Shown here: piece by piece, positions 56,161 to 64,000 of the stretch
Layout of the letters: each line of letters starts with the position of its first letter
Numbering within the stretch: position 1 is the first letter of the stretch
Assembly: GCA_965205485.1 (NCBI GenBank)
Contig: OZ242180.1
Span: 704,001 to 768,000 of the forward strand
From: Candidatus Latescibacterota bacterium
GTDB lineage: Bacteria; Latescibacterota; UBA2968; GCA-2709665
Reading direction: 5' to 3'
Length of the DNA: 64,000 nt
Notes under the pieces: generated by a model
What the model saw: the letters and a program-made list of their open reading frames with translations, nothing else
Told to the model about the DNA's origin: nothing
Databases searched by the model: none
Translations under genes and position numbers: made by a program

Positions 56161-59100
56161 ATGCAGAGGGGCCTGGTGGTTTCGGTATGCGCGGCACTGA
56201 CTCTGGTCGCAGCGACGTGGACAGGTGATATCGGCGTAATAGAGCCGCAATCCGTGTCTGCGCAGTCCGCGACATGCCCCGGCGACTTCAACGGCGACGG
56301 GAAGGTGAATCTGGCTGATTTTCTGGCTTTCGCCGGTGGCTTCGGCATGCGTTCCGGAGATGCCAATTTCAACGCGCGTTTGGATATGGACGGTAGCGGC
56401 TCGGTCGATCTGTCCGATTTTCTGGCATTCGCCGGGGTGTTCGGGACCAACTGCGAAGACCGGCCTCGCGGTTCGGTCAGCGGGGACCGGGCGGCGCTGG
56501 TTGCGCTGTACAATGCGACCGACGGGCCGAACTGGGTCGACAACACCAACTGGCTGACCGACGCGCCGCTCGGAGAATGGTATGGGGTAGAGACGGATGC
56601 TTCCGGGCGAGTCGTGGAGCTGAATCTCGGCGGAATCCTTGACGAAAGTGGATGGCCCGTGCCCCATGGCCTCCAGGGACGGATTCCGCCTGAAATCGGT
56701 GATCTCGCGAATCTGCAGCGTCTTATCCTGTATCGAAACAACCTATCCGGCTCGATTCCCTCAGAAATCGGCCAGTTGGCGGCATTGCGCGATCTGTATC
56801 TCCACTCCAACGAACTGAGCGGTACAGTTCCGCCGGAACTGGGGAGACTGGGTCAGTTGAGGATTCTAGATTTGAGTATTAACTACCTGGAGGGAGGCAT
56901 TCCACCGGATCTGGGAAGGCTGGTTCAGTTGACTAGCCTTGAACTTAACTCCAACCCGATGGGCGGACGAATTCCGTCGGCATTGGGCAACCTGAGAAAA
57001 CTGGACGTATTAAGGTTAGAATTTTGCCTGCTCAGGGGCCCGATCCCGCCGGAGTTGGGCAATCTGAGAAATCTGCGCTATCTGAGTCTAACTGAAAACG
57101 AACTCACGGGCGTCATTCCGCAGGCGCTGGGAAACCTAGGGGAGTTGGAATCCCTACATTTATTTCGTAACAAGCTTACGGGCCCGATCCCGCCGGAGTT
57201 GGGCAATCTCAGCAAGCTGCGCTCTCTGAGTCTATATGAAAACGAACTCACAGGCGTCATTCCGCAGGCGCTGGGAAACCTCGAGGCGTTGAAATACCTA
57301 TATTTATTTCGTAACAAGCTTACGGGCCCGATCCCGCCGGAGTTGGGCAATTTGAGAAATCTGGTTGACTTAAGTATCAGGAACAATGAGCTTTCCGGAC
57401 CTATGCCGGCTGAAATTGCGAAACTCGACAGACTACGTAGTTTGAACATTTCAGGCAATCGATTGACGGGTTCGATTCCACCGGAACTGGGAAGTCTCGC
57501 GGCGTTGGAAGACTTGAGTCTTGCAGAAAACCGTTTAAGCGGGCCGATTCCTCCCGATCTCGGCAACCTCGGCAATTTGCAGTACCTTACTTTAGGGGAC
57601 AATCTGCTGGAAGGCTCCATTCCACATAGTTTTTTACGCTTGAACCGGCTGATAGATATGGGCTGTCGAAATACCCGCGGCGTATGCATACCTGCGACGG
57701 AAGCGTTCAGGGAATGGGAGCGAGAGGTTGTAGCGCGTGGAAATGTGCACAGACCCTTACTTATCCCGCATTGCGACGAAATCGACAGACGCGGCCTGGA
57801 GGCCCTGTACGAGGCCACGAACGGCGACGGATGGACGCGGTCCAACGGCTGGCTCGAAGACAAGAATCTGAGTCGTTGGCACGGGGTGAGGACCGATGCC
57901 GTCGGCCGGGTCTCCGGTCTCGATCTGAGCGGCAACGGGTTGTCGGGATATCTTCCGGTCGAGTTGGGGCTGCTTGCCAACCTGAATGAACTGCGGCTCC
58001 GAAACAATGCGCTATCCGGCCGACTTCCGTTGTCGCTGACAGGTGCGCCACTGAAAGCAATTGACTACGGAGGCACGTCTCTGTGCGTGGTCGATAATGC
58101 CGATTTCCAGGAATGGCTAGACGGCATCCCGCGCCACGTCGGAACAGGGATCCAGTGCCTACCGCTTACAGACCGCGAAATCCTCGAATTGTTGTACCGT
58201 AACACCGATGGCACGAACTGGGACGAGAGCGCGGGTTGGCTGACCGACGCCCCACTGTCCGCGTGGCACGGCGTGGGCACAGACGAGGACGGCCGCGTCA
58301 TTAAACTCCAATTGCCAAACAACATCTGTCCGGCTTGATTCCCGTGGAAATCGGGCAAATGGGCAAACTGCGGATACTTGACCTTAACCGAAACAGGCTT
58401 TCAGGCTCGATTCCTCAGGAACTGGGTACACTGGCCCGTCTGAAGCGGCTCGAACTCTACGGGAATCAACTCAACGGCAAGATCCCGCGAGAACTCGGGC
58501 AACTGCGGGAATTGCAAGTGCTTCGTATTGGCTGGAACCAGCTTTCGGGTTCCGTCCCGTCAGAGTTGGGTCATCTGGACAGTCTGGAGCGACTCGATCT
58601 TTACAGGAATCAACTCAACGGCGAGATCCCGCGGGAACTCGGCAAGCTCGCTAACGTGACCGACCTGAACATCGGTAGGAATTTCCTCTCGGGCACGATT
58701 CCACCGGAACTGGGTGACCTGGGCCGTCTGGTGTGGCTCAATCTTGAACGTAATCAGCTCGTGGGTGGCATCCCCCCGGAACTTGGCAAGCCGAAAACGA
58801 TCGAGTCCATCAATCTTGCCGACAACCGGTTGACCGGGCGGGTTCCGCCCCAGCTTGGCGCCCTGGTCCGCCTGTCGGCTTTGAACCTGTCGGCCAACCA
58901 ATTAAGCGGTCCGATTCCCCCGGAACTCGGCAGGCTCGGCGATCTTCAGGAGCTTACGTTATTCGGCAACAATCTCTCGGGGCCGATCCCTGAGGAACTG
59001 GGTGAGCTCGCGAACCTGACTTCGCTGAATCTGGGCGACAATGGGTTCTCCGGACCACTGCCTGGCGAACTTGCGCAGGCCTTGAACCTCGAGAGTCTTG

Positions 59101-60818
59101 ACCTTCGGAACAACGCGCTTTCCGGTCGGGTTCCGGCCGAGTTGGGCAACCTCACACAGTTGACGTCGCTGATTCTCGCCGATAATCCCGCTCTTGCCGG
59201 TCCATTGCCTCTCGTATTCACGGCATTGGAGAAGCTCGAACGGTTCATGGCGGGTGGGACTGGACTGTGCCGACCGGCGAACACCAGCTTCGATACGTGG
59301 TTTGGCGCAATACCTGATCGACGTATTGTGCGCTGCGCGGGTGGGGCAGCCGTGTATCTCACCCAGACGATACAGTCGTGGGACGATCCGGTGCCGCTGC
59401 TGGCGGGCGAACCCGCGCTGCTGCGTGTGTTCGTGACTGCGCCAGGTGGGGGCGCGGCCACAATGCCTAGTGTGCGTGCCACATTCTTTGGGAATGATAC
59501 TCAACGCCACACAGTCCGTATTGTCGGGGGTATGCAGTCGATACCCACGGAAGTTTTCGAGGGCGATCTTGACATGTCCGCCAACGCCGAGATTCCGGGA
59601 TGGGTCATTACGCCCGGCCTCGAGATGGTGATCGAAGTCGACCCCGAGGGTACCCTGGCTACGGCGACAGGTGTGACGAAGCGAATTCCGGATTCCGGCC
59701 GCATGGTCGTCGATGTTCGATCCGTTCCCCCGTTTAGATTGACCCTGGTCCCGCTTCTCTCGACGAGTGACTCTGACGCATCTGTTGTCAAGACCGTGAC
59801 CGAAATGGCGTCGGATCCGCATAATCACGAGTTGCTCCGTGACCTGCGGACGCTTCTGCCAATAGCGACGTTCACCGTCAAGGAGCACGAGGCCATAGTC
59901 ATGTCGACACCGGACCCCAGAGAGAAGCTGAACCAACTTCAGGCTACGCGACTAATGGAAGGCGGTACGGGATATTGGCTGGGAATCTTTGTTGAGAGAA
60001 AAACAGGTGATCATATCTGGAACTCGGGAATTGCCATACTTGGAGGCTCAGTGAGTGTCTCACTCCCCGTTGCGAGTACGATAGCACATGAACTGGGGCA
60101 CAACCTTTCGCTCGATCACGCGCCTTGCGGCCAACCCGGAGCTATTGACCCCTGGTTCCCCCACGAAGGCGGTCTAATTGGCGCCTGGGGTTACGACTTT
60201 GGAAAACGTGCAACGGTCAACCCCAATACGCCCGACGTGATGTCCTATTGTGGTGGACGCAACTGGATCAGCGATTACTTCTACAGAAAGGCGTTCCGAC
60301 ACCGTCATTCCAACGAGGTTGCTGTGAAGTCAGCGCTGGCCGTCGCGAATCACGATCGCACACTTCTGCTGTGGGGCGGACGAGACAAGGTTGGGGTCCC
60401 GTACCTGGATCCCGCTTTCGTCGTTGACGCAGTGCCCTCCCTTCCTCCCGCGGGCGAAGATTACACGATCGAGGGAGCGACCGCTGACGGAATGCCTGTC
60501 TTCTCATACACGTTCGACATGCCGGTCACAGCAGACGCTGAGGGCGAAGAGACGAACTTTGTATTCGCCCTGCCTCTTCAGCCCGAATGGACCGGCAACC
60601 TGGCGAGTATCACGCTGTCCGGCCCCGGCGGCTCGGCCACGCTGGACGGGAGTACGGACCGTCCGATGGCCATCCTGCGCGATCTGCAGACGGGCCAGGT
60701 AAGCGGATTCCTGTCTGATCTTACGGCAGAGGAAGCGGCGCAGGCAGCGGAAGGCGCGTTCGCGGCCAAGCCCGGAACGGAAGCGATCTTCAGCAGGGGA
60801 ATTCCGGATCTTCGGTAG
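56161..60818 (+). pseudogene. Secreted EF-hand/dockerin-like + plant-type LRR arrays + zinc metallopeptidase (M66-like) protein, split by a 1-nt deletion at ~58324
   Basis: GGAGG RBS, signal peptide, two GDFNGDG/LDMDGSG..DFLAFA motifs, 24-aa LxxLxLxxNxLSGxIPxELG repeats with three DR.AL..LY..T.G..W caps, HELGHNLSLDHAPC; one added A restores LQLPNNNLSGLIPVE. Confidence 0.85.
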
Positions 60819-61047
60819 ATGGTGAGCAGGATTCCAACAGCTGGCGGACTGGTGCGTCAACGCGGCCGGCCGTGCGCTCGTTCGGAACGCCGCCGCCTCC
60901 CATCGTGTGTCATCCGGATCATTAGCCGATTTATGAGCATTGCCTGGTCTTCGCAACTGGCAAAAAGCCGCTCCGACTCGTAATTGCGTTCCGATCGGCC
61001 GACTTCGGTCTGCTTGCCGCGGCGGTCCCGACAGGGAGCAATTCCGC

Positions 61048-61085
61048 TCCCCTCTCCGTGCCGGGGAGGGGCCGGGCGAGGGGTC
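61048..61085. repeat. CCCCTCTCC-type REP-like palindrome
   Basis: TCCCCTCTCCGTGCCGGGGAGGGGCCGGGCGAGGGG, same family as 24972-25009 in opposite orientation. Confidence 0.55.
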
Positions 61086-61256
61086 GCCTTTCCCGACGTG
61101 AGGGTGGGGCCTGCCGGCTCCCCGCATGACCCGTTTTCTTCCCTTCCAGATCCGACGAACCCAATCCGTTTGACTTTCAGACCGACGCATCACTTCCACG
61201 GCGAGAAAACCAGTCGTTGTTGGATCGGTACGTTCCGGGCGGAGCGAAGTGACCCG

Positions 61257-61324
61257 AAATTCATCATAAAATCAGCAAAAAGGACCAAAAATTCAAAGCT
61301 AATTCGAAATAATTTCCGTATCTT
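61257..61324 (+). promoter_or_regulatory. Recurrent 4xTCA direct-repeat promoter, copy 5
   Basis: TCA at 61261/61272/61293, TCG at 61304, TATCTT at 61319. Confidence 0.7.
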
Positions 61325-61539
61325 ATTAGTTTGTTTGGAAAATAAGGTGTATACCCGAACAGTGATCGCGTCGGCCGCCGCGGTCGGTTCTGGTTCTTTT
61401 AGACAGCCTCGCCAGCCTGGTCCGTACCTCTCATGTGGTTGGCTGGGAATACAGGTACGTCAAATGAGATTTTCGTTTCCAAACGCCGCCTCGTTTCTGC
61501 CCGTAGATTGAAGCCCAAAGCCGCCAGACAGGAGATCGC

Positions 61540-61704
61540 ATGCTCATGTTTGTTCTGGTCGTTTCGATGATTTGTCTCCTTGCCACATTGGTCGCATTGA
61601 GCTATGTGGTATCCCTCTCAGTCAAAATGGATCATCTGCTCAAGCGCGTTGCTGAGATCGAAGGCTATCTGGCCGTCAGCTCCGGACCGCACAAGGAAAT
61701 CTGA
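61540..61704 (+). CDS. Small single-TM protein (54 aa), below ORF-track cutoff
   Basis: AGGAG RBS; MLMFVLVVSMICLLATLVALSYVVSLSVKMDHLLKRVAEIEGYLAVSSGPHKEI. Confidence 0.6.
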   Translation: MLMFVLVVSMICLLATLVALSYVVSLSVKMDHLLKRVAEIEGYLAVSSGPHKEI

Positions 61705-62065
61705 CGAAGTCCGGTCCGGAATACCGCAGATCCAATACGCGCGGATAGCTGGCAGAACGCACAATTCCGGATCCCTGCCGGAGGTTTAACCTCAATTCCG
61801 CAAAAGCCGCAACGCGGCACCACGACGAGACCCTTCGAAACAGGCCGAAATGGTCGTCATGAAGGACATTATTTCAGTTCACGTACAGTGTCCTGGTGTA
61901 TCCTGGTAATCAGCAGTCTAATCGCCTTTTTTACTGACACATATTCAAATTAACGTCCTCGAAAAATGAGGAATCAAGGTTAATCGGGGCGCGCGGCGGC
62001 TTTTGTGGAACAATCCAGGTCCTGATTCAGGAAACGGTTTCCAGTAGATTTCCAAGGAGTGGACA

Positions 62066-62230
62066 ATGGAACTGACGAAACTGGAGTTTTTCGCCGGGAT
62101 GGCGCTTTGCGGGGCCGCCAGGTCTGACAACACCTGGCACGAACAGGCAACCGTAGATACCGCAATTGAGATCGCGCGGCGAATGATCAAGACGCTCGAA
62201 GAGGAAAAGACCACCGGCGAAGCGTCATAG
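62066..62230 (+). CDS. Small helical protein (54 aa), below ORF-track cutoff
   Basis: AAGGAG RBS; MELTKLEFFAGMALCGAARSDNTWHEQATVDTAIEIARRMIKTLEEEKTTGEAS. Confidence 0.6.
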   Translation: MELTKLEFFAGMALCGAARSDNTWHEQATVDTAIEIARRMIKTLEEEKTTGEAS

Positions 62231-62378
62231 TCGCGGCATTATCGGTGTTGTTTCGTAATGAAAGGCGCCTGATCCCGATTCGTACACACGTAATCGGAGG
62301 CGCGAAACGACCGGTTAATGTGAAAGTGATTTCCCGAAACAGAACTGATCATTTCGGACTGGTCGGCTCTTTCTATTT

Positions 62379-62627
62379 CGATGGGGCGGTTAAACCGGGG
62401 ACGCTACTCATTCCCGCAAGGGCAGCCAAAGCCGGAAATTCTTCCAGGATACCTCCGTTGACACCCGGCGTTGTCCTGCCGCCCCATCGGTATGGACCGG
62501 AAGTGTACGTGAATTGTGCCGGGCAGTGGTCAAACCGGGCGTGAATGCCTGCAAGGGCGGCCACACGCCGGGCGCCCTTCCCTCATGACGGTTCTGGCGT
62601 CTGGCGCCGTCCTGCCGCTGCCCGGCA
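62379..62627 (+). ncRNA. Candidate tandem structured RNA motif (two ~111-nt units)
   Basis: Units 62379-62489 and 62517-62627 share GGTYAAACCGGG, CCYGCAAGGGCRGCCA, GCCGG and CYGGCGYYGTCCTGCCGC with different but complementary closing stems. Confidence 0.6.
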
Positions 62628-62768
62628 GCAGGTTGATTGTCACTTCCGTCGCCGGAAAGCGTCACGCCCAGTGAGTATTCCCTGCCCCGAAGTCCTCGAT
62701 TCACCCCGCCATTCAACTGACGTACTACCTCTCCAACCCGCCGAAAAAACAGATTGAAGGCGAGAAAT

Positions 62769-64000
62769 ATGGCGAATTCACGCATGGAAATCATCATCGT
62801 CGCACAAGAACGGGCAGTCGCAATGCAATTGGAAGCGGTTCTGGCAGAATTGGGTTACACGGTAGCCGCGGTCGCCTCGCGCGGGCGCGACGGCGTTAAA
62901 CTCGCGTCAGATGTACGACCCGACCTCGCCGTCGTCGACCTCGGCCTACAAGGAGACCTGAATGGCCCCGAAGTCGGCGACCAACTACGCGGCGGGTCCG
63001 ACGTACCGGTCGTTTACCTGACCGACGTGGCGGAGGGAGACCTATTCGATCGGGCGCGAGCAACGAATCCGTACGGCTTCGTGCTCAAGCCATTCGATGC
63101 CCGCCAACTCGAACTAAACATCCAAACCGCCCTGTGCCTGCACGAAAGGGAAAGAAGGCATCGAGAAACGCGAGTCCGTCTGGAAGAATCCATCGAAGAA
63201 TCGAAATGTCATTCTGAATTGATGGAGACCGTCTTTAACAGCATGGGCGAGGGTGTGGTTGCCGTTGGTGAAGACGGGACGATTCTGTTTCACAATTCAA
63301 GCGGTCCGCGCATCGGGGGCAGGCATCACCTGGTGAAGGACATCGCAAGATGGCCCGAAGAATATGGTGTTTTTGAGCCCGATGGCGAGACCGTCCTCAG
63401 CGAGGACCTGAACCCGCTGTTGCTTGCCCTCAGAGGTCAGTCGACGGAAGAAACCGAGTTTCTGATCCGCAACCCTCAGAAGCCCGCGGGTGTCCAGGTG
63501 AGCGTCAACGCCAGACCTTTGCGTGACAGGGCCGGGTCTCCGATGGGTGGCGTAGCAGTCATACGTGACGTCACGAAATTGAAGCAAGCGGAAGCTGAGT
63601 TGGAGCGGACGGTCGCCAAACTGCAGGAACAAGCCAATTTGATGGAGACCATCTTCAATAGTATCAGTGATGGAATCATCGTTGCAGATAACGCGGGAAA
63701 GTTCCTTTACGCAAACCCCGGGGCCCGTCAGATTGTCGGCGTGGATATATTGGACGGTTTTCCGGACAATTGTGCGGAGAAACTCGGTTTGTACTTTCCG
63801 GACCGGGAAACGCCCACGAAGACGGAGGACCTGCCGCTGATGCGAGCCATACGCTTCGGCGAGTCCACGGATGAGGAAGACGTGTTCTTGCGGAACGAGA
63901 AAAAGCCGGACGGCGTTTACATCAGGATGAGCGGACGGCCCTTGCTCGATAAATCTGGCGGAATCAAGGGCGGCGTCGTGATTTTTCGTGATGTTACAGA
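62769..64000 (+). CDS. REC-PAS-PAS signalling protein, 3' truncated by window end
   Basis: Open frame from ATG 62769: MANSRMEIIIVAQE..PDLAVVDLGL..GFVLKPF receiver, then two PAS repeats (LMETVFNSMGEGVV..RDVT; LMETIFNSISDGII..FRDVT); absent from ORF track because it has no stop. Confidence 0.88.
   Translation, partial: MANSRMEIIIVAQERAVAMQLEAVLAELGYTVAAVASRGRDGVKLASDVRPDLAVVDLGLQGDLNGPEVGDQLRGGSDVPVVYLTDVAEGDLFDRARATNPYGFVLKPFDARQLELNIQTALCLHERERRHRETRVRLEESIEESKCHSELMETVFNSMGEGVVAVGEDGTILFHNSSGPRIGGRHHLVKDIARWPEEYGVFEPDGETVLSEDLNPLLLALRGQSTEETEFLIRNPQKPAGVQVSVNARPLRDRAGSPMGGVAVIRDVTKLKQAEAELERTVAKLQEQANLMETIFNSISDGIIVADNAGKFLYANPGARQIVGVDILDGFPDNCAEKLGLYFPDRETPTKTEDLPLMRAIRFGESTDEEDVFLRNEKKPDGVYIRMSGRPLLDKSGGIKGGVVIFRDVT

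What the first reader, a model, noticed from the sequence alone, without database searches (positions are those of the whole stretch)
62379..62627. Tandem three-way-junction RNA motif with compensatory changes upstream of a REC-PAS gene (riboswitch candidate)
Seen: two ~111-nt units 27 nt apart. Unit 1: P1 CGATGGGGCGGT/GCCGCCCCATCG, bulge TAAACC, P2 GGGACG/TGTCCT, hairpin CCC-GCAA-GGG, linker CAGCCAAA, P4 GCCGG/CCGGC. Unit 2: P1 TGCCGGGCAGTGGT/GCCGCTGCCCGGCA, bulge CAAACC, P2 GGGCG/CGTCC, hairpin GCCT-GCAA-GGGC, linker GGCCACA, P4 CGCCGGGCGCC/GGCGTCTGGCG. Stems differ in sequence but keep pairing, with G-U pairs favouring the + strand, while junction nucleotides are conserved. The pair ends ~140 nt before a signalling gene. 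Known: tandem aptamers and GNRA tetraloops are riboswitch hallmarks. The order GG(T)YAAACC..GNRA..AAAGCC loosely recalls c-di-GMP-I, but I see no tetraloop receptor and cannot match a known family. Inference: novel cis-regulatory RNA or sRNA.
Basis: partly seen in the sequence, partly recalled or inferred. Interest (0 to 1): 0.8.

Follow-up and report, generated by a model that had tools for sequence, protein, structure and literature searches.

The report
New structured leader RNA, tandem copy
The two repeats are real copies of a previously undescribed folded RNA that one genus of Latescibacterota places mostly in front of genes for secreted, eukaryote-like repeat proteins, where it probably controls their expression.

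Summary
Window 62379-62489 and 62519-62625 (+) are two copies of one about 110-nt RNA fold. Its P2 and its GCAA tetraloop hairpin are wrong: covariation supports a P2 hairpin and a long P3 instead.

The fold is a three-way junction with a conserved core. It matches no Rfam 15 family, including c-di-GMP-I and LOOT.

Covariance-model searches found 48 copies in 14 of 22 genomes of the family: 12 of 14 genomes of the genus and 1 of 2 in a second genus. Nothing was found in the rest of the class or phylum samples. In 38 aligned copies, 28 of 31 base pairs show compensatory changes.

Copies are often tandem. Twenty-five of 33 sites are co-oriented with the next gene. Some end only 29-53 nt before a start codon, so there they are 5' leaders. 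The downstream genes are enriched for LRR, WD40, TPR, PD40 and Ig-like repeat proteins (13 of 25, against 9 of 114 control ORFs).

Half of the dereplicated P4 loops carry CCUCC, the core of the 16S anti-Shine-Dalgarno sequence.

Best reading: a new cis-acting leader RNA. Its effector is unknown and transcription was not tested.

The parts
62379..62489 (+). Unit 1 of the RNA motif. P1 62379-62390 with 62478-62489; J1/2 62391-62395; P2 hairpin 62396-62416; J2/3 62417-62418; P3 62419-62426 with 62470-62477; 4-nt bulge 62427-62430; P4 62431-62435 with 62465-62469; variable P4 loop 62436-62464.
   Evidence: MFE fold. Scores 124 bits with model R1 and 111.6 bits with R2. Helices supported by covariation.
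62452..62456 (+). CCUCC in the P4 loop of unit 1. It is identical to the anti-Shine-Dalgarno core of this genome's 16S rRNA 3' end.
   Evidence: Sequence. CCTCC is the most enriched 5-mer in P4 loops: 11 of 22 dereplicated loops, 0 of 2000 shuffles. The 16S 3' end was read.
62519..62625 (+). Unit 2 of the RNA motif. P1 62519-62530 with 62614-62625, extendable to 62517-62627; J1/2 62531-62535; P2 62536-62551; J2/3 62552-62553; P3 62554-62561 with 62606-62613; bulge 62562-62566; P4 62567-62571 with 62601-62605; pyrimidine-rich P4 loop 62572-62600.
   Evidence: 114 bits with R1, 96.6 bits with R2. Covariation.
62490..62518 (+). Short linker between the two units. It is too short to hold a terminator plus a promoter, so the units should lie on one transcript.
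   Evidence: In the 431-nt fold, part of the linker pairs with 62628-62650 and extends P1 of unit 2.
62626..62768 (+). Spacer between unit 2 and the start codon. No intrinsic terminator was found in it. A weak purine-rich ribosome-binding stretch lies just before the ATG at 62769.
62754..64000 (+). 5' part of the downstream gene for a REC-PAS-HATPase_c sensor kinase, 712 aa in the genome. A sigma-54 activator gene follows beyond the window.
   Evidence: ORF. Pfam results on the full gene L046:6755-8893 and on the next gene.
62066..62230 (+). Small upstream ORF of 54 aa with no Pfam family. Its 3' end is conserved upstream of the tandem RNAs in two related genomes.
62345..62366 (+). Weak terminator-like hairpin with a T-rich tail, ending 12 nt before unit 1. 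It may end the transcript of the small ORF.
   Evidence: That scan found 2 such sites against 1.6 expected from shuffles, so this is not significant by itself.

Best explanation
Shown: the two units are tandem copies of a previously undescribed, strand-specific structured RNA family of about 95-125 nt. The fold is a three-way junction. A 12-bp P1 is closed by an almost invariant U-G pair. A 5-nt J1/2 strand (YAAAC) follows, then a variable P2 hairpin and a 1-3 nt J2/3. A sequence-conserved P3 carries a G-U pair and a one-sided 4-5 nt bulge. P4 follows, and there is no J3/1 strand. The family occurs 1-9 times per genome in one genus of Latescibacterota MAGs, and once in a sister genus. It is usually co-oriented with the next gene. 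In several cases it ends only 29-53 nt before the start codon, so there it must be part of the mRNA leader.

Inferred: it is a cis-acting leader element that co-regulates a set of genes, mostly for secreted eukaryote-like repeat proteins. In this window the regulated unit would be a two-component/sigma-54 operon. The conserved junction core is the docking site for a shared effector, which could be a small molecule or a protein; which one is unknown. In most copies the exposed P4 loop carries an anti-Shine-Dalgarno mimic (CCUCC). This loop would pair with the ribosome-binding site of the downstream message and set its translation. The tandem units would sharpen or add to that response.
For: Structure: 93.0% of 1140 cells are paired in 38 copies, and 28 of 31 pairs change on both sides. 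None of 500 shuffles reached this, and slid controls gave 37-53% paired. An alignment made without the model (MAFFT plus RNAalifold) recovers P1 and P3, with 15 of 19 predicted pairs compensatory.

Strand: the U-G pair closing P1 is present in 37 of 38 copies. The reverse strand scores 12-13 bits against 112-124 bits.

Distribution: 48 matches in 14 of 22 genomes of the family.

Leader position: 25 of 33 sites have a co-oriented ORF of at least 100 aa within 1.4 kb (my tally; binomial p 0.002). The start codon lies 29 nt downstream in L150 and L151, 30 nt in L064, 39 nt in L059, 44 nt in L061, 51 nt in L149 and 53 nt in L048. That leaves no room for a terminator plus a promoter.

Gene class: 13 of 25 downstream genes carry LRR, WD40, TPR, PD40, Ldl_recept_b or Ig-like repeats. 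The control was 9 of 114 evenly sampled ORFs of at least 200 aa. Fisher p is 1.7e-6, or 1.8e-5 after merging orthologous sites. One RNA subtype precedes WD40, TPR, LRR and PD40 genes alike, so the link is not just co-duplication with one gene family.

Anti-SD loop: CCTCC is the top 5-mer in P4 loops, in 11 of 22 dereplicated loops and 0 of 2000 shuffles. The 16S 3' end reads ...GATCACCTCCTTTCT. Downstream genes have strong purine-rich ribosome-binding sites.

One transcript: units lie 10-29 nt apart in two loci.
Against: Transcription was not observed. Eight of 33 sites have no co-oriented gene or face a convergent one (L049, L054:5912, L056, L058:6635, L060, L148, L152, L154). One of these is a well-conserved tandem pair in genome G010. 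Several distances to the next gene are long for a leader, 660-1400 nt (L053, L062, L055, L052). No terminator/antiterminator or other switching element was found. The subtype upstream of WD40/TPR genes lacks CCUCC in P4. CCUCC would pair with almost any ribosome-binding site, so its presence does not prove action in cis. The site classes and the list of 'eukaryote-like' repeats were drawn up by me, and paralogous sites are not independent. ORFs were called by length only.
Confidence: 0.5

Rival explanations
1. A trans-acting small RNA family ('sibling' sRNAs, possibly processed from leaders). The exposed CCUCC loops would act as seeds that pair with ribosome-binding sites of target mRNAs, and the junction would be a scaffold or a chaperone-binding site.
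For: There are 1-9 paralogous copies per genome, often tandem. An anti-SD-like sequence sits in a terminal loop. Eight of 33 sites lack a co-oriented gene, including a conserved tandem pair in G010. Some copies lie far from the next gene. One copy (L059) has TTGACA, a 17-nt spacer and TAAATA ending 3 nt before P1, so that RNA would start at P1. Four copies have a U-run right after P1 (L052:18348, L065, L048, L058:6635).
Against: Most copies have no terminator-like element after P1. Units 10-29 nt apart cannot be separate genes. Seven copies end 29-53 nt before a start codon and must be in the mRNA. Orientation is biased, with 25 of 33 co-oriented. The strong conservation of the junction core is not explained by a seed function.
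Confidence: 0.25
2. A passive 5' structure with no specific effector, such as an mRNA-stabilising 5' cap-like fold, an RNA thermometer or a ribosome standby element.
For: The motif sits at or near the likely 5' end of leaders (L059). It is GC-rich and very stable. No switching element was found.
Against: Junction strands, the P3 sequence, the G-U pair and the one-sided bulge are conserved at the sequence level across diverged paralogs, while P1 and P2 covary freely. That pattern suggests specific recognition rather than stability alone. A fold of -52 to -72 kcal/mol would not melt at physiological temperatures.
Confidence: 0.12
3. A diverged c-di-GMP-I (GEMM-I)-type second-messenger riboswitch.
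For: It has three-helix junction architecture. The downstream genes are signalling and surface or secreted proteins, the sort of genes that cyclic-dinucleotide riboswitches often control (the latter from general knowledge).
Against: RF01051 has no match at E<=1 anywhere in the genome and none at E<=10 in the region. There is none in 20 other loci that carry the motif. The supposed GNRA loop is not a loop. There is no J3/1 strand. The order and lengths of the helices differ.
Confidence: 0.03
4. A dispersed repeat or mobile-element remnant (REP/MITE-like) with no RNA function.
For: It is multi-copy. One copy (L153) lies beside a DDE transposase fragment.
Against: A BLAST-type search of the genome with unit 1 finds only unit 1 itself (E 7e-58; next best E 0.54). 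The copies have diverged in sequence yet keep pairing through compensatory changes. G-U pairs are strand-specific. Copy number is low and orientation is gene-biased.
Confidence: 0.03

Closest known systems
c-di-GMP-I (GEMM-I) riboswitch, Rfam RF01051
   Same: Three-helix junction with an A-rich strand between P1 and P2. It can occur in leaders of signalling and surface-protein genes (general knowledge).
   Different: No covariance-model match. No tetraloop and receptor. No J3/1 strand. P3 has a conserved G-U pair and a one-sided bulge followed by P4.
Tandem-aptamer riboswitches (glycine riboswitch architecture)
   Same: Two homologous folded domains joined by a short linker on one transcript, upstream of one gene.
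   Different: No sequence or structure match to the glycine family in Rfam. No ligand is known and no expression platform was identified. Many copies of this motif are single.
Leader structures that sequester the ribosome-binding site, and sRNAs with C/U-rich seed loops (LhrC and RsaE types; both recalled, not looked up here)
   Same: An exposed loop complementary to the Shine-Dalgarno sequence. Multi-copy and tandem arrangement beside two-component genes resembles sibling sRNA clusters.
   Different: Here the loop caps a conserved three-way junction. Most copies lack terminators and many are demonstrably in leaders.
LOOT motif, Rfam RF03000 (orphan structured RNA reported from Latescibacteria and candidate phyla)
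   Same: An orphan multi-stem RNA from the same phylum.
   Different: RF03000 has no match in this genome at E<=1 and none in the window. It is a different family.

Membership tests
Any Rfam 15 family | Match to the family covariance model at or near its gathering score | tested here: not met
   There were 0 matches at gathering score in the 64 kb window. The region at E<=10 gave only RsmW, on the opposite strand, at 14 bits against a gathering score of 52. Twenty other loci carrying the motif, scanned at E<=1, gave one unrelated match away from the motif.
c-di-GMP-I riboswitch (RF01051) | Covariance-model match | tested here: not met
   No match at E<=1 in the whole genome. No match in the region at E<=10.
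c-di-GMP-I riboswitch (RF01051) | GNRA tetraloop on P2 docking into a receptor in P3 | tested here: not met
   The GCAA hairpin is paired in only 72.9% of cells with 1 compensatory pair, while the competing P2/P3 are paired in 93-94%. The P2 loops vary in length and sequence.
c-di-GMP-I riboswitch (RF01051) | Binding of c-di-GMP at the junction | not testable with these tools
   Needs in-line probing or ITC.
Riboswitch (general) | Conserved structured aptamer in 5' leaders of functionally related genes | tested here: met
   Covariation. Leader position. Enrichment of repeat-protein genes.
Riboswitch (general) | Expression platform with mutually exclusive structures (terminator/antiterminator or SD sequestration) | tested here: inconclusive
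   No terminator was found. An anti-SD-like loop is present in 11 of 22 dereplicated copies. No alternative pairing was demonstrated.
Riboswitch (general) | Direct, selective ligand binding | not testable with these tools
   No candidate ligand follows from the gene context, which is secreted repeat proteins rather than enzymes or transporters.
Independent sRNA gene | Own promoter and own terminator flanking the RNA | tested here: inconclusive
   One of 32 copies inspected has a sigma-70-like promoter ending 3 nt before P1 (L059). Four of 28 listed copies have a U-run after P1, and there is none in the window. The promoter type of this phylum is unknown to me.
Dispersed repeat (REP/MITE) | Many near-identical copies, no orientation preference, no compensatory change | tested here: not met

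The most novel reading that the evidence does not exclude
This is a new riboswitch class, often built as tandem aptamers. Its junction would bind a small signal, for example a host-derived or symbiosis-related metabolite or a second messenger. It would switch on or off a regulon of secreted eukaryote-like repeat proteins (LRR, WD40, TPR, PD40, Ig-like), and in this genome a two-component/sigma-54 module, through an anti-Shine-Dalgarno loop. If so, it would be the first RNA-level control circuit described for the proteins thought to mediate symbiont-host interaction.
Probability: 0.2. Interest if true: 0.85.

Novelty: new variant of a known kind. Interest (0 to 1): 0.64.

Why it matters
Eukaryote-like repeat proteins are the hallmark gene class of sponge-associated bacteria. 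A recent paper reports that single such genes change how sponges handle bacteria (PMC13747020; only its title and the start of its abstract were seen, in the listing). How these genes are regulated is essentially unknown.

A conserved RNA sitting in front of many different classes of them in one lineage points to post-transcriptional co-regulation. It also gives a concrete handle: about 110 nt, with a defined core and a defined loop, ready for reporter assays, ligand or protein fishing and metatranscriptome mapping.

For RNA biology it is a well-supported new orphan motif. Its design is unusual: a three-way junction that presents a copy of the 16S anti-Shine-Dalgarno sequence. Its reach is narrow, essentially one genus, which limits general importance.

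Tried and rejected

2. Known families were ruled out. These were all of Rfam, c-di-GMP-I and LOOT.

3. I recalled a 'Poribacteria-1' motif from the 224-motif study. A text search for that name found 0 papers. The main text of PMC5737381 has no hit for Poribacteria, sponge, WD40 or leucine-rich. Its supplement could not be read, so a name given only there cannot be excluded. All Rfam models were negative.

4. A BLAST-type search of the genome with unit 1 found only unit 1. The paralogs are too diverged for that method.

5. Expression: no RNA holder was listed, and read laying was not used.

6. Wider distribution. The class sample had 0 matches outside the family: 13 of 132 genomes matched, all in family f1. 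The phylum sample had 13 of 151, all in the genus. Five genomes of other phyla that hold relatives of the kinase had 0 of 5; that tool notes an empty answer there shows little. Among 77 loci around relatives of the kinase, only the 4 known genomes plus one known copy matched. Eighty metagenome loci around distant M60-peptidase relatives had 0 matches.

I stopped that step, so distribution outside the species-representative genomes remains open.

8. The small ORF upstream (62066-62230) and a small ORF downstream of another copy (L030) show no similarity.

9. By eye, three copies have TGGCAC- or TGGCAT-like boxes upstream (L065, L063, G000 2361718). By my recollection of the sigma-54 consensus, the spacing to a GC element is off by 1-2 nt, so I do not claim a sigma-54 promoter.

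10. Literature searches for a described RNA of this kind gave nothing relevant: 'Poribacteria + riboswitch', 'sponge symbiont / eukaryotic-like / riboswitch' and 'Latescibacter + RNA motif'.

11. Earlier notes of this scan hold no look-alike stretch.

Full report
**What is in the window.** Between a 54-aa ORF (62066-62230) and a REC-PAS-HATPase gene (ATG at 62769) lie two related stretches on the + strand: 62379-62489 and 62519-62625. Each folds alone into the same shape, and much better than shuffled sequence. Unit 1 folds at -52.2 kcal/mol (z -3.5) and unit 2 at -71.9 kcal/mol (z -4.6), with 0 of 200 shuffles as good in either case. The reverse complements are weaker, z -2.4 and -2.0. A pattern covering the conserved junction occurs only at these two places in the 64 kb window, against 0 expected.

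**The fold.**
- The minimum-energy fold of both units is a three-way junction.
- It reads: P1 of 12 bp, a 5-nt strand (T/C)AAAC, a P2 hairpin, CA, then P3 of 8 bp (AGGGCAGC with GTTGTCCT in unit 1).
- A 4-5 nt bulge sits on the 5' side only, followed by P4 (GCCGG with CCGGC) and a 29-nt loop.
It paired GGGACG with TGTCCT and read CCC-GCAA-GGG as a tetraloop hairpin.
- On 32 homologs those two helices are paired in only 64.9% and 72.9% of cells and hardly covary.
- The P2 hairpin and P3 are paired in 92.9% and 94.5% of cells. Changes on both sides occur in 6 of 6 and 6 of 8 pairs.

**Homologs and covariation.**
- A covariance model built from the two units (R1) found only the pair in its own genome.
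- In 151 related genomes it found 17 matches in 7 genomes. All were in the same genus (6 of 14 other genomes), and several were at other loci.
- Rebuilt models found more (R2 from 19 copies; R3 from 38 copies).
- With R3 there are 48 matches in 14 of 22 genomes of the family. That is 12 of 14 other genomes of the genus, 1 of 2 in a second genus, and 0 of 5 genomes in the other three genera. Copy number is 1-9 per genome.
- The window's genome holds six copies. These are the tandem pair plus copies at genome positions 1223849, 182178, 451956 and 2361718.
- In the 38-copy alignment 93.0% of 1140 cells are standard pairs, against 72.7% when partners are shuffled.
- Twenty-eight of 31 pairs show changes on both sides. 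None of 500 shuffles reached the observed values, and sliding the partners by 1-3 columns drops pairing to 37-53%.
- That alignment is fitted to the model, so I also aligned 34 copies with MAFFT alone. RNAalifold on it again returned P1 and P3, with 15 of 19 predicted pairs compensatory. P2 and P4 were lost there because of length variation.
- The U-G pair closing P1 is present in 37 of 38 copies, and a G-U pair in P3 is common. Together with reverse-strand scores of 12-13 bits against 112-124 bits, this fixes the strand.

**Not a known family.**
- The window has no Rfam 15 match at gathering score.
- At E<=10 the region gives only RsmW, on the wrong strand, at 14 bits.
- Twenty other loci with the motif give nothing at the motif at E<=1.
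- The c-di-GMP-I model (RF01051) and the LOOT model (RF03000, an orphan RNA of this phylum) have no match in the whole genome at E<=1.
- Text searches found no description of such an RNA.
- The supplement of the 224-motif study could not be opened.

**Whose genome.** Named records that hold close relatives of the downstream kinase are titled MAGs of 'Candidatus Latescibacterota', and some 'Gemmatimonadota'. I did not verify the habitat. Sponge-associated Latescibacterota rich in eukaryote-like proteins are described in PMC12993501 and PMC7081726; I saw only titles and abstract starts in the listing.

**Restricted to one lineage.**
- Outside the family the motif was not found in the genomes searched.
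- The class sample had 13 of 132 genomes with a match, all in family f1.
- The phylum sample had 13 of 151, all in the genus.
- Five genomes of other phyla had 0 of 5.
- Eighty metagenome loci around distant M60 homologs had 0 matches.

**Gene context.**
- I grouped the 38 aligned copies into 34 sites, counting tandem copies as one. One site is at a contig edge.
- Of the other 33, 25 have a co-oriented ORF of at least 100 aa starting within 1.4 kb (binomial p 0.002).
- Eight do not. They face a convergent gene or have only small ORFs.
- In seven sites the start codon follows closely: 29 nt (L150, L151), 30 nt (L064), 39 nt (L059), 44 nt (L061), 51 nt (L149) and 53 nt (L048). There the RNA must be part of the mRNA leader.
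- By Pfam the downstream genes include LRR proteins, WD40 proteins (one fused to an M60 peptidase), a TPR protein, and a PD40/dockerin/CARDB protein.
- They also include Ldl_recept_b/NHL, Big_12/He_PIG and LRR-fn3-cadherin proteins, and a lipocalin-like lipoprotein.
- Many start with a signal-peptide-like N-terminus, judged by eye.
- Thirteen of 25 downstream genes carry such repeats. The control was 9 of 114 ORFs of at least 200 aa taken from ten evenly spaced 20-kb regions of the same genome (114 of the 116 ORFs called were scanned).
- Fisher p is 1.7e-6, or 1.8e-5 after merging orthologous sites.
- One RNA subtype, with a distinct P4 loop, precedes WD40, TPR, LRR and PD40 genes alike. So the link is not explained by co-duplication with a single gene family.

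**The kinase link is incidental.**
- In three related genomes an LRR gene lies between the RNA and the orthologous REC-PAS kinase and sigma-54 activator genes.
- In this genome and one other the LRR gene is missing, and the RNA abuts the kinase gene.
- In genome G010 the conserved tandem pair is followed by opposite-strand genes.
- Kinase orthologs of 58-78% identity in other genomes have no motif within 2.5 kb upstream.

**Tandem arrangement.**
- Tandem copies recur at independent loci.
- They are 29 nt apart here and in one relative, and about 200 nt apart in two genomes.
- They are 82 nt apart in L052 and 10 nt apart in L064. A degenerate extra copy lies upstream in L057.
- Gaps of 10-29 nt cannot hold a terminator plus a promoter, so those units sit on one transcript.

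**The P4 loop.**
- With no prior motif, the most over-represented 5-mer in 22 dereplicated P4 loops is CCTCC. It is in 11 loops and in 0 of 2000 shuffles.
- The genome's 16S rRNA ends ...GATCACCTCCTTTCT.
- So the loops copy the anti-Shine-Dalgarno core, and in some copies up to 8-9 nt of it.
- Unit 1 has CCUCC at 62452-62456. Unit 2 has CCCUUCCCUC.
- The WD40/TPR subtype lacks this motif.

**Mechanism.**
- Shown: a structured, strand-specific, lineage-restricted RNA family. It is often tandem and usually lies in leaders of genes for secreted repeat proteins. Its junction is conserved and it carries an anti-SD-like loop.
- Inferred: the junction binds a common effector, and the loop pairs with the downstream ribosome-binding site to set translation.
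- I put this cis-leader reading at 0.5.
- The rivals are a trans-acting or leader-derived sRNA at 0.25, a passive stabilising structure at 0.12, a diverged c-di-GMP-I riboswitch at 0.03 and a functionless repeat at 0.03.
- No terminator or alternative pairing was found in the window, and no RNA data were available.

**Verdict.** This is a well-supported new orphan RNA motif. Its association with eukaryote-like protein genes is biologically suggestive. Its mode of action is unproven and its taxonomic range is narrow.

Noticed in passing
window 60819-62753: This is an unusually long stretch of about 1.9 kb without a convincing gene, apart from the 54-aa ORF at 62066-62230. It lies between an LRR/metalloprotease-like gene (58335-60818) and the kinase gene. 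I looked only at its last 400 nt.
   Followed up: no
window 62497-62516 with 62628-62650: In the 431-nt fold, the linker before unit 2 pairs with the sequence just after it. This extends P1 of unit 2 by about 20 further pairs. The same letters are largely kept in the closest relative.
   Followed up: partly
window 62066-62230: This 54-aa ORF has no Pfam family. Its C-terminal coding end is conserved just upstream of the tandem RNAs in two related genomes (L049, L050). It is unrelated to the small ORFs after the copy at L030.
   Followed up: partly
L051:12635-12994: Right after one motif copy there is an open frame encoding an HEYGH zinc-protease-like motif. It has no start codon and is open from inside the motif. 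It may be a gene remnant. A repeat protein with a signal-peptide-like start follows about 365 nt after the motif.
   Followed up: no
L065 upstream of 6151; L063 upstream of 5961; G000 2361690-2361717: TGGCAC- or TGGCAT-like boxes lie 15-25 nt upstream of three copies, and sigma-54 activator genes are neighbours in two loci. By eye, the spacing to a GC element is 1-2 nt off the usual sigma-54 spacing.
   Followed up: partly
L059:5840-5879: TTGACA, a 17-nt spacer and TAAATA end 3 nt before P1 of that copy. This is the only clear sigma-70-like promoter I saw upstream of a copy.
   Followed up: no
L153:4959-5522: A DDE transposase fragment (DDE_Tnp_1_4) lies 206 nt downstream of one copy.
   Followed up: no
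L158:9277-11310 (G000 1309277-1311310): A control-region ORF combines a GPP34 domain with a cytochrome P450 domain. GPP34 was recently linked to sponge symbiosis in Actinobacteriota (PMC11706023, title seen in the listing).
   Followed up: no
L054 and L052 (G006 contig 32; G009 3.42-3.43 Mb): Two to three motif copies flank a GAF-HisKA-HATPase-REC-Trans_reg_C hybrid kinase gene within 12-17 kb, in two genomes. This is a second recurrent neighbourhood with a signalling gene.
   Followed up: partly
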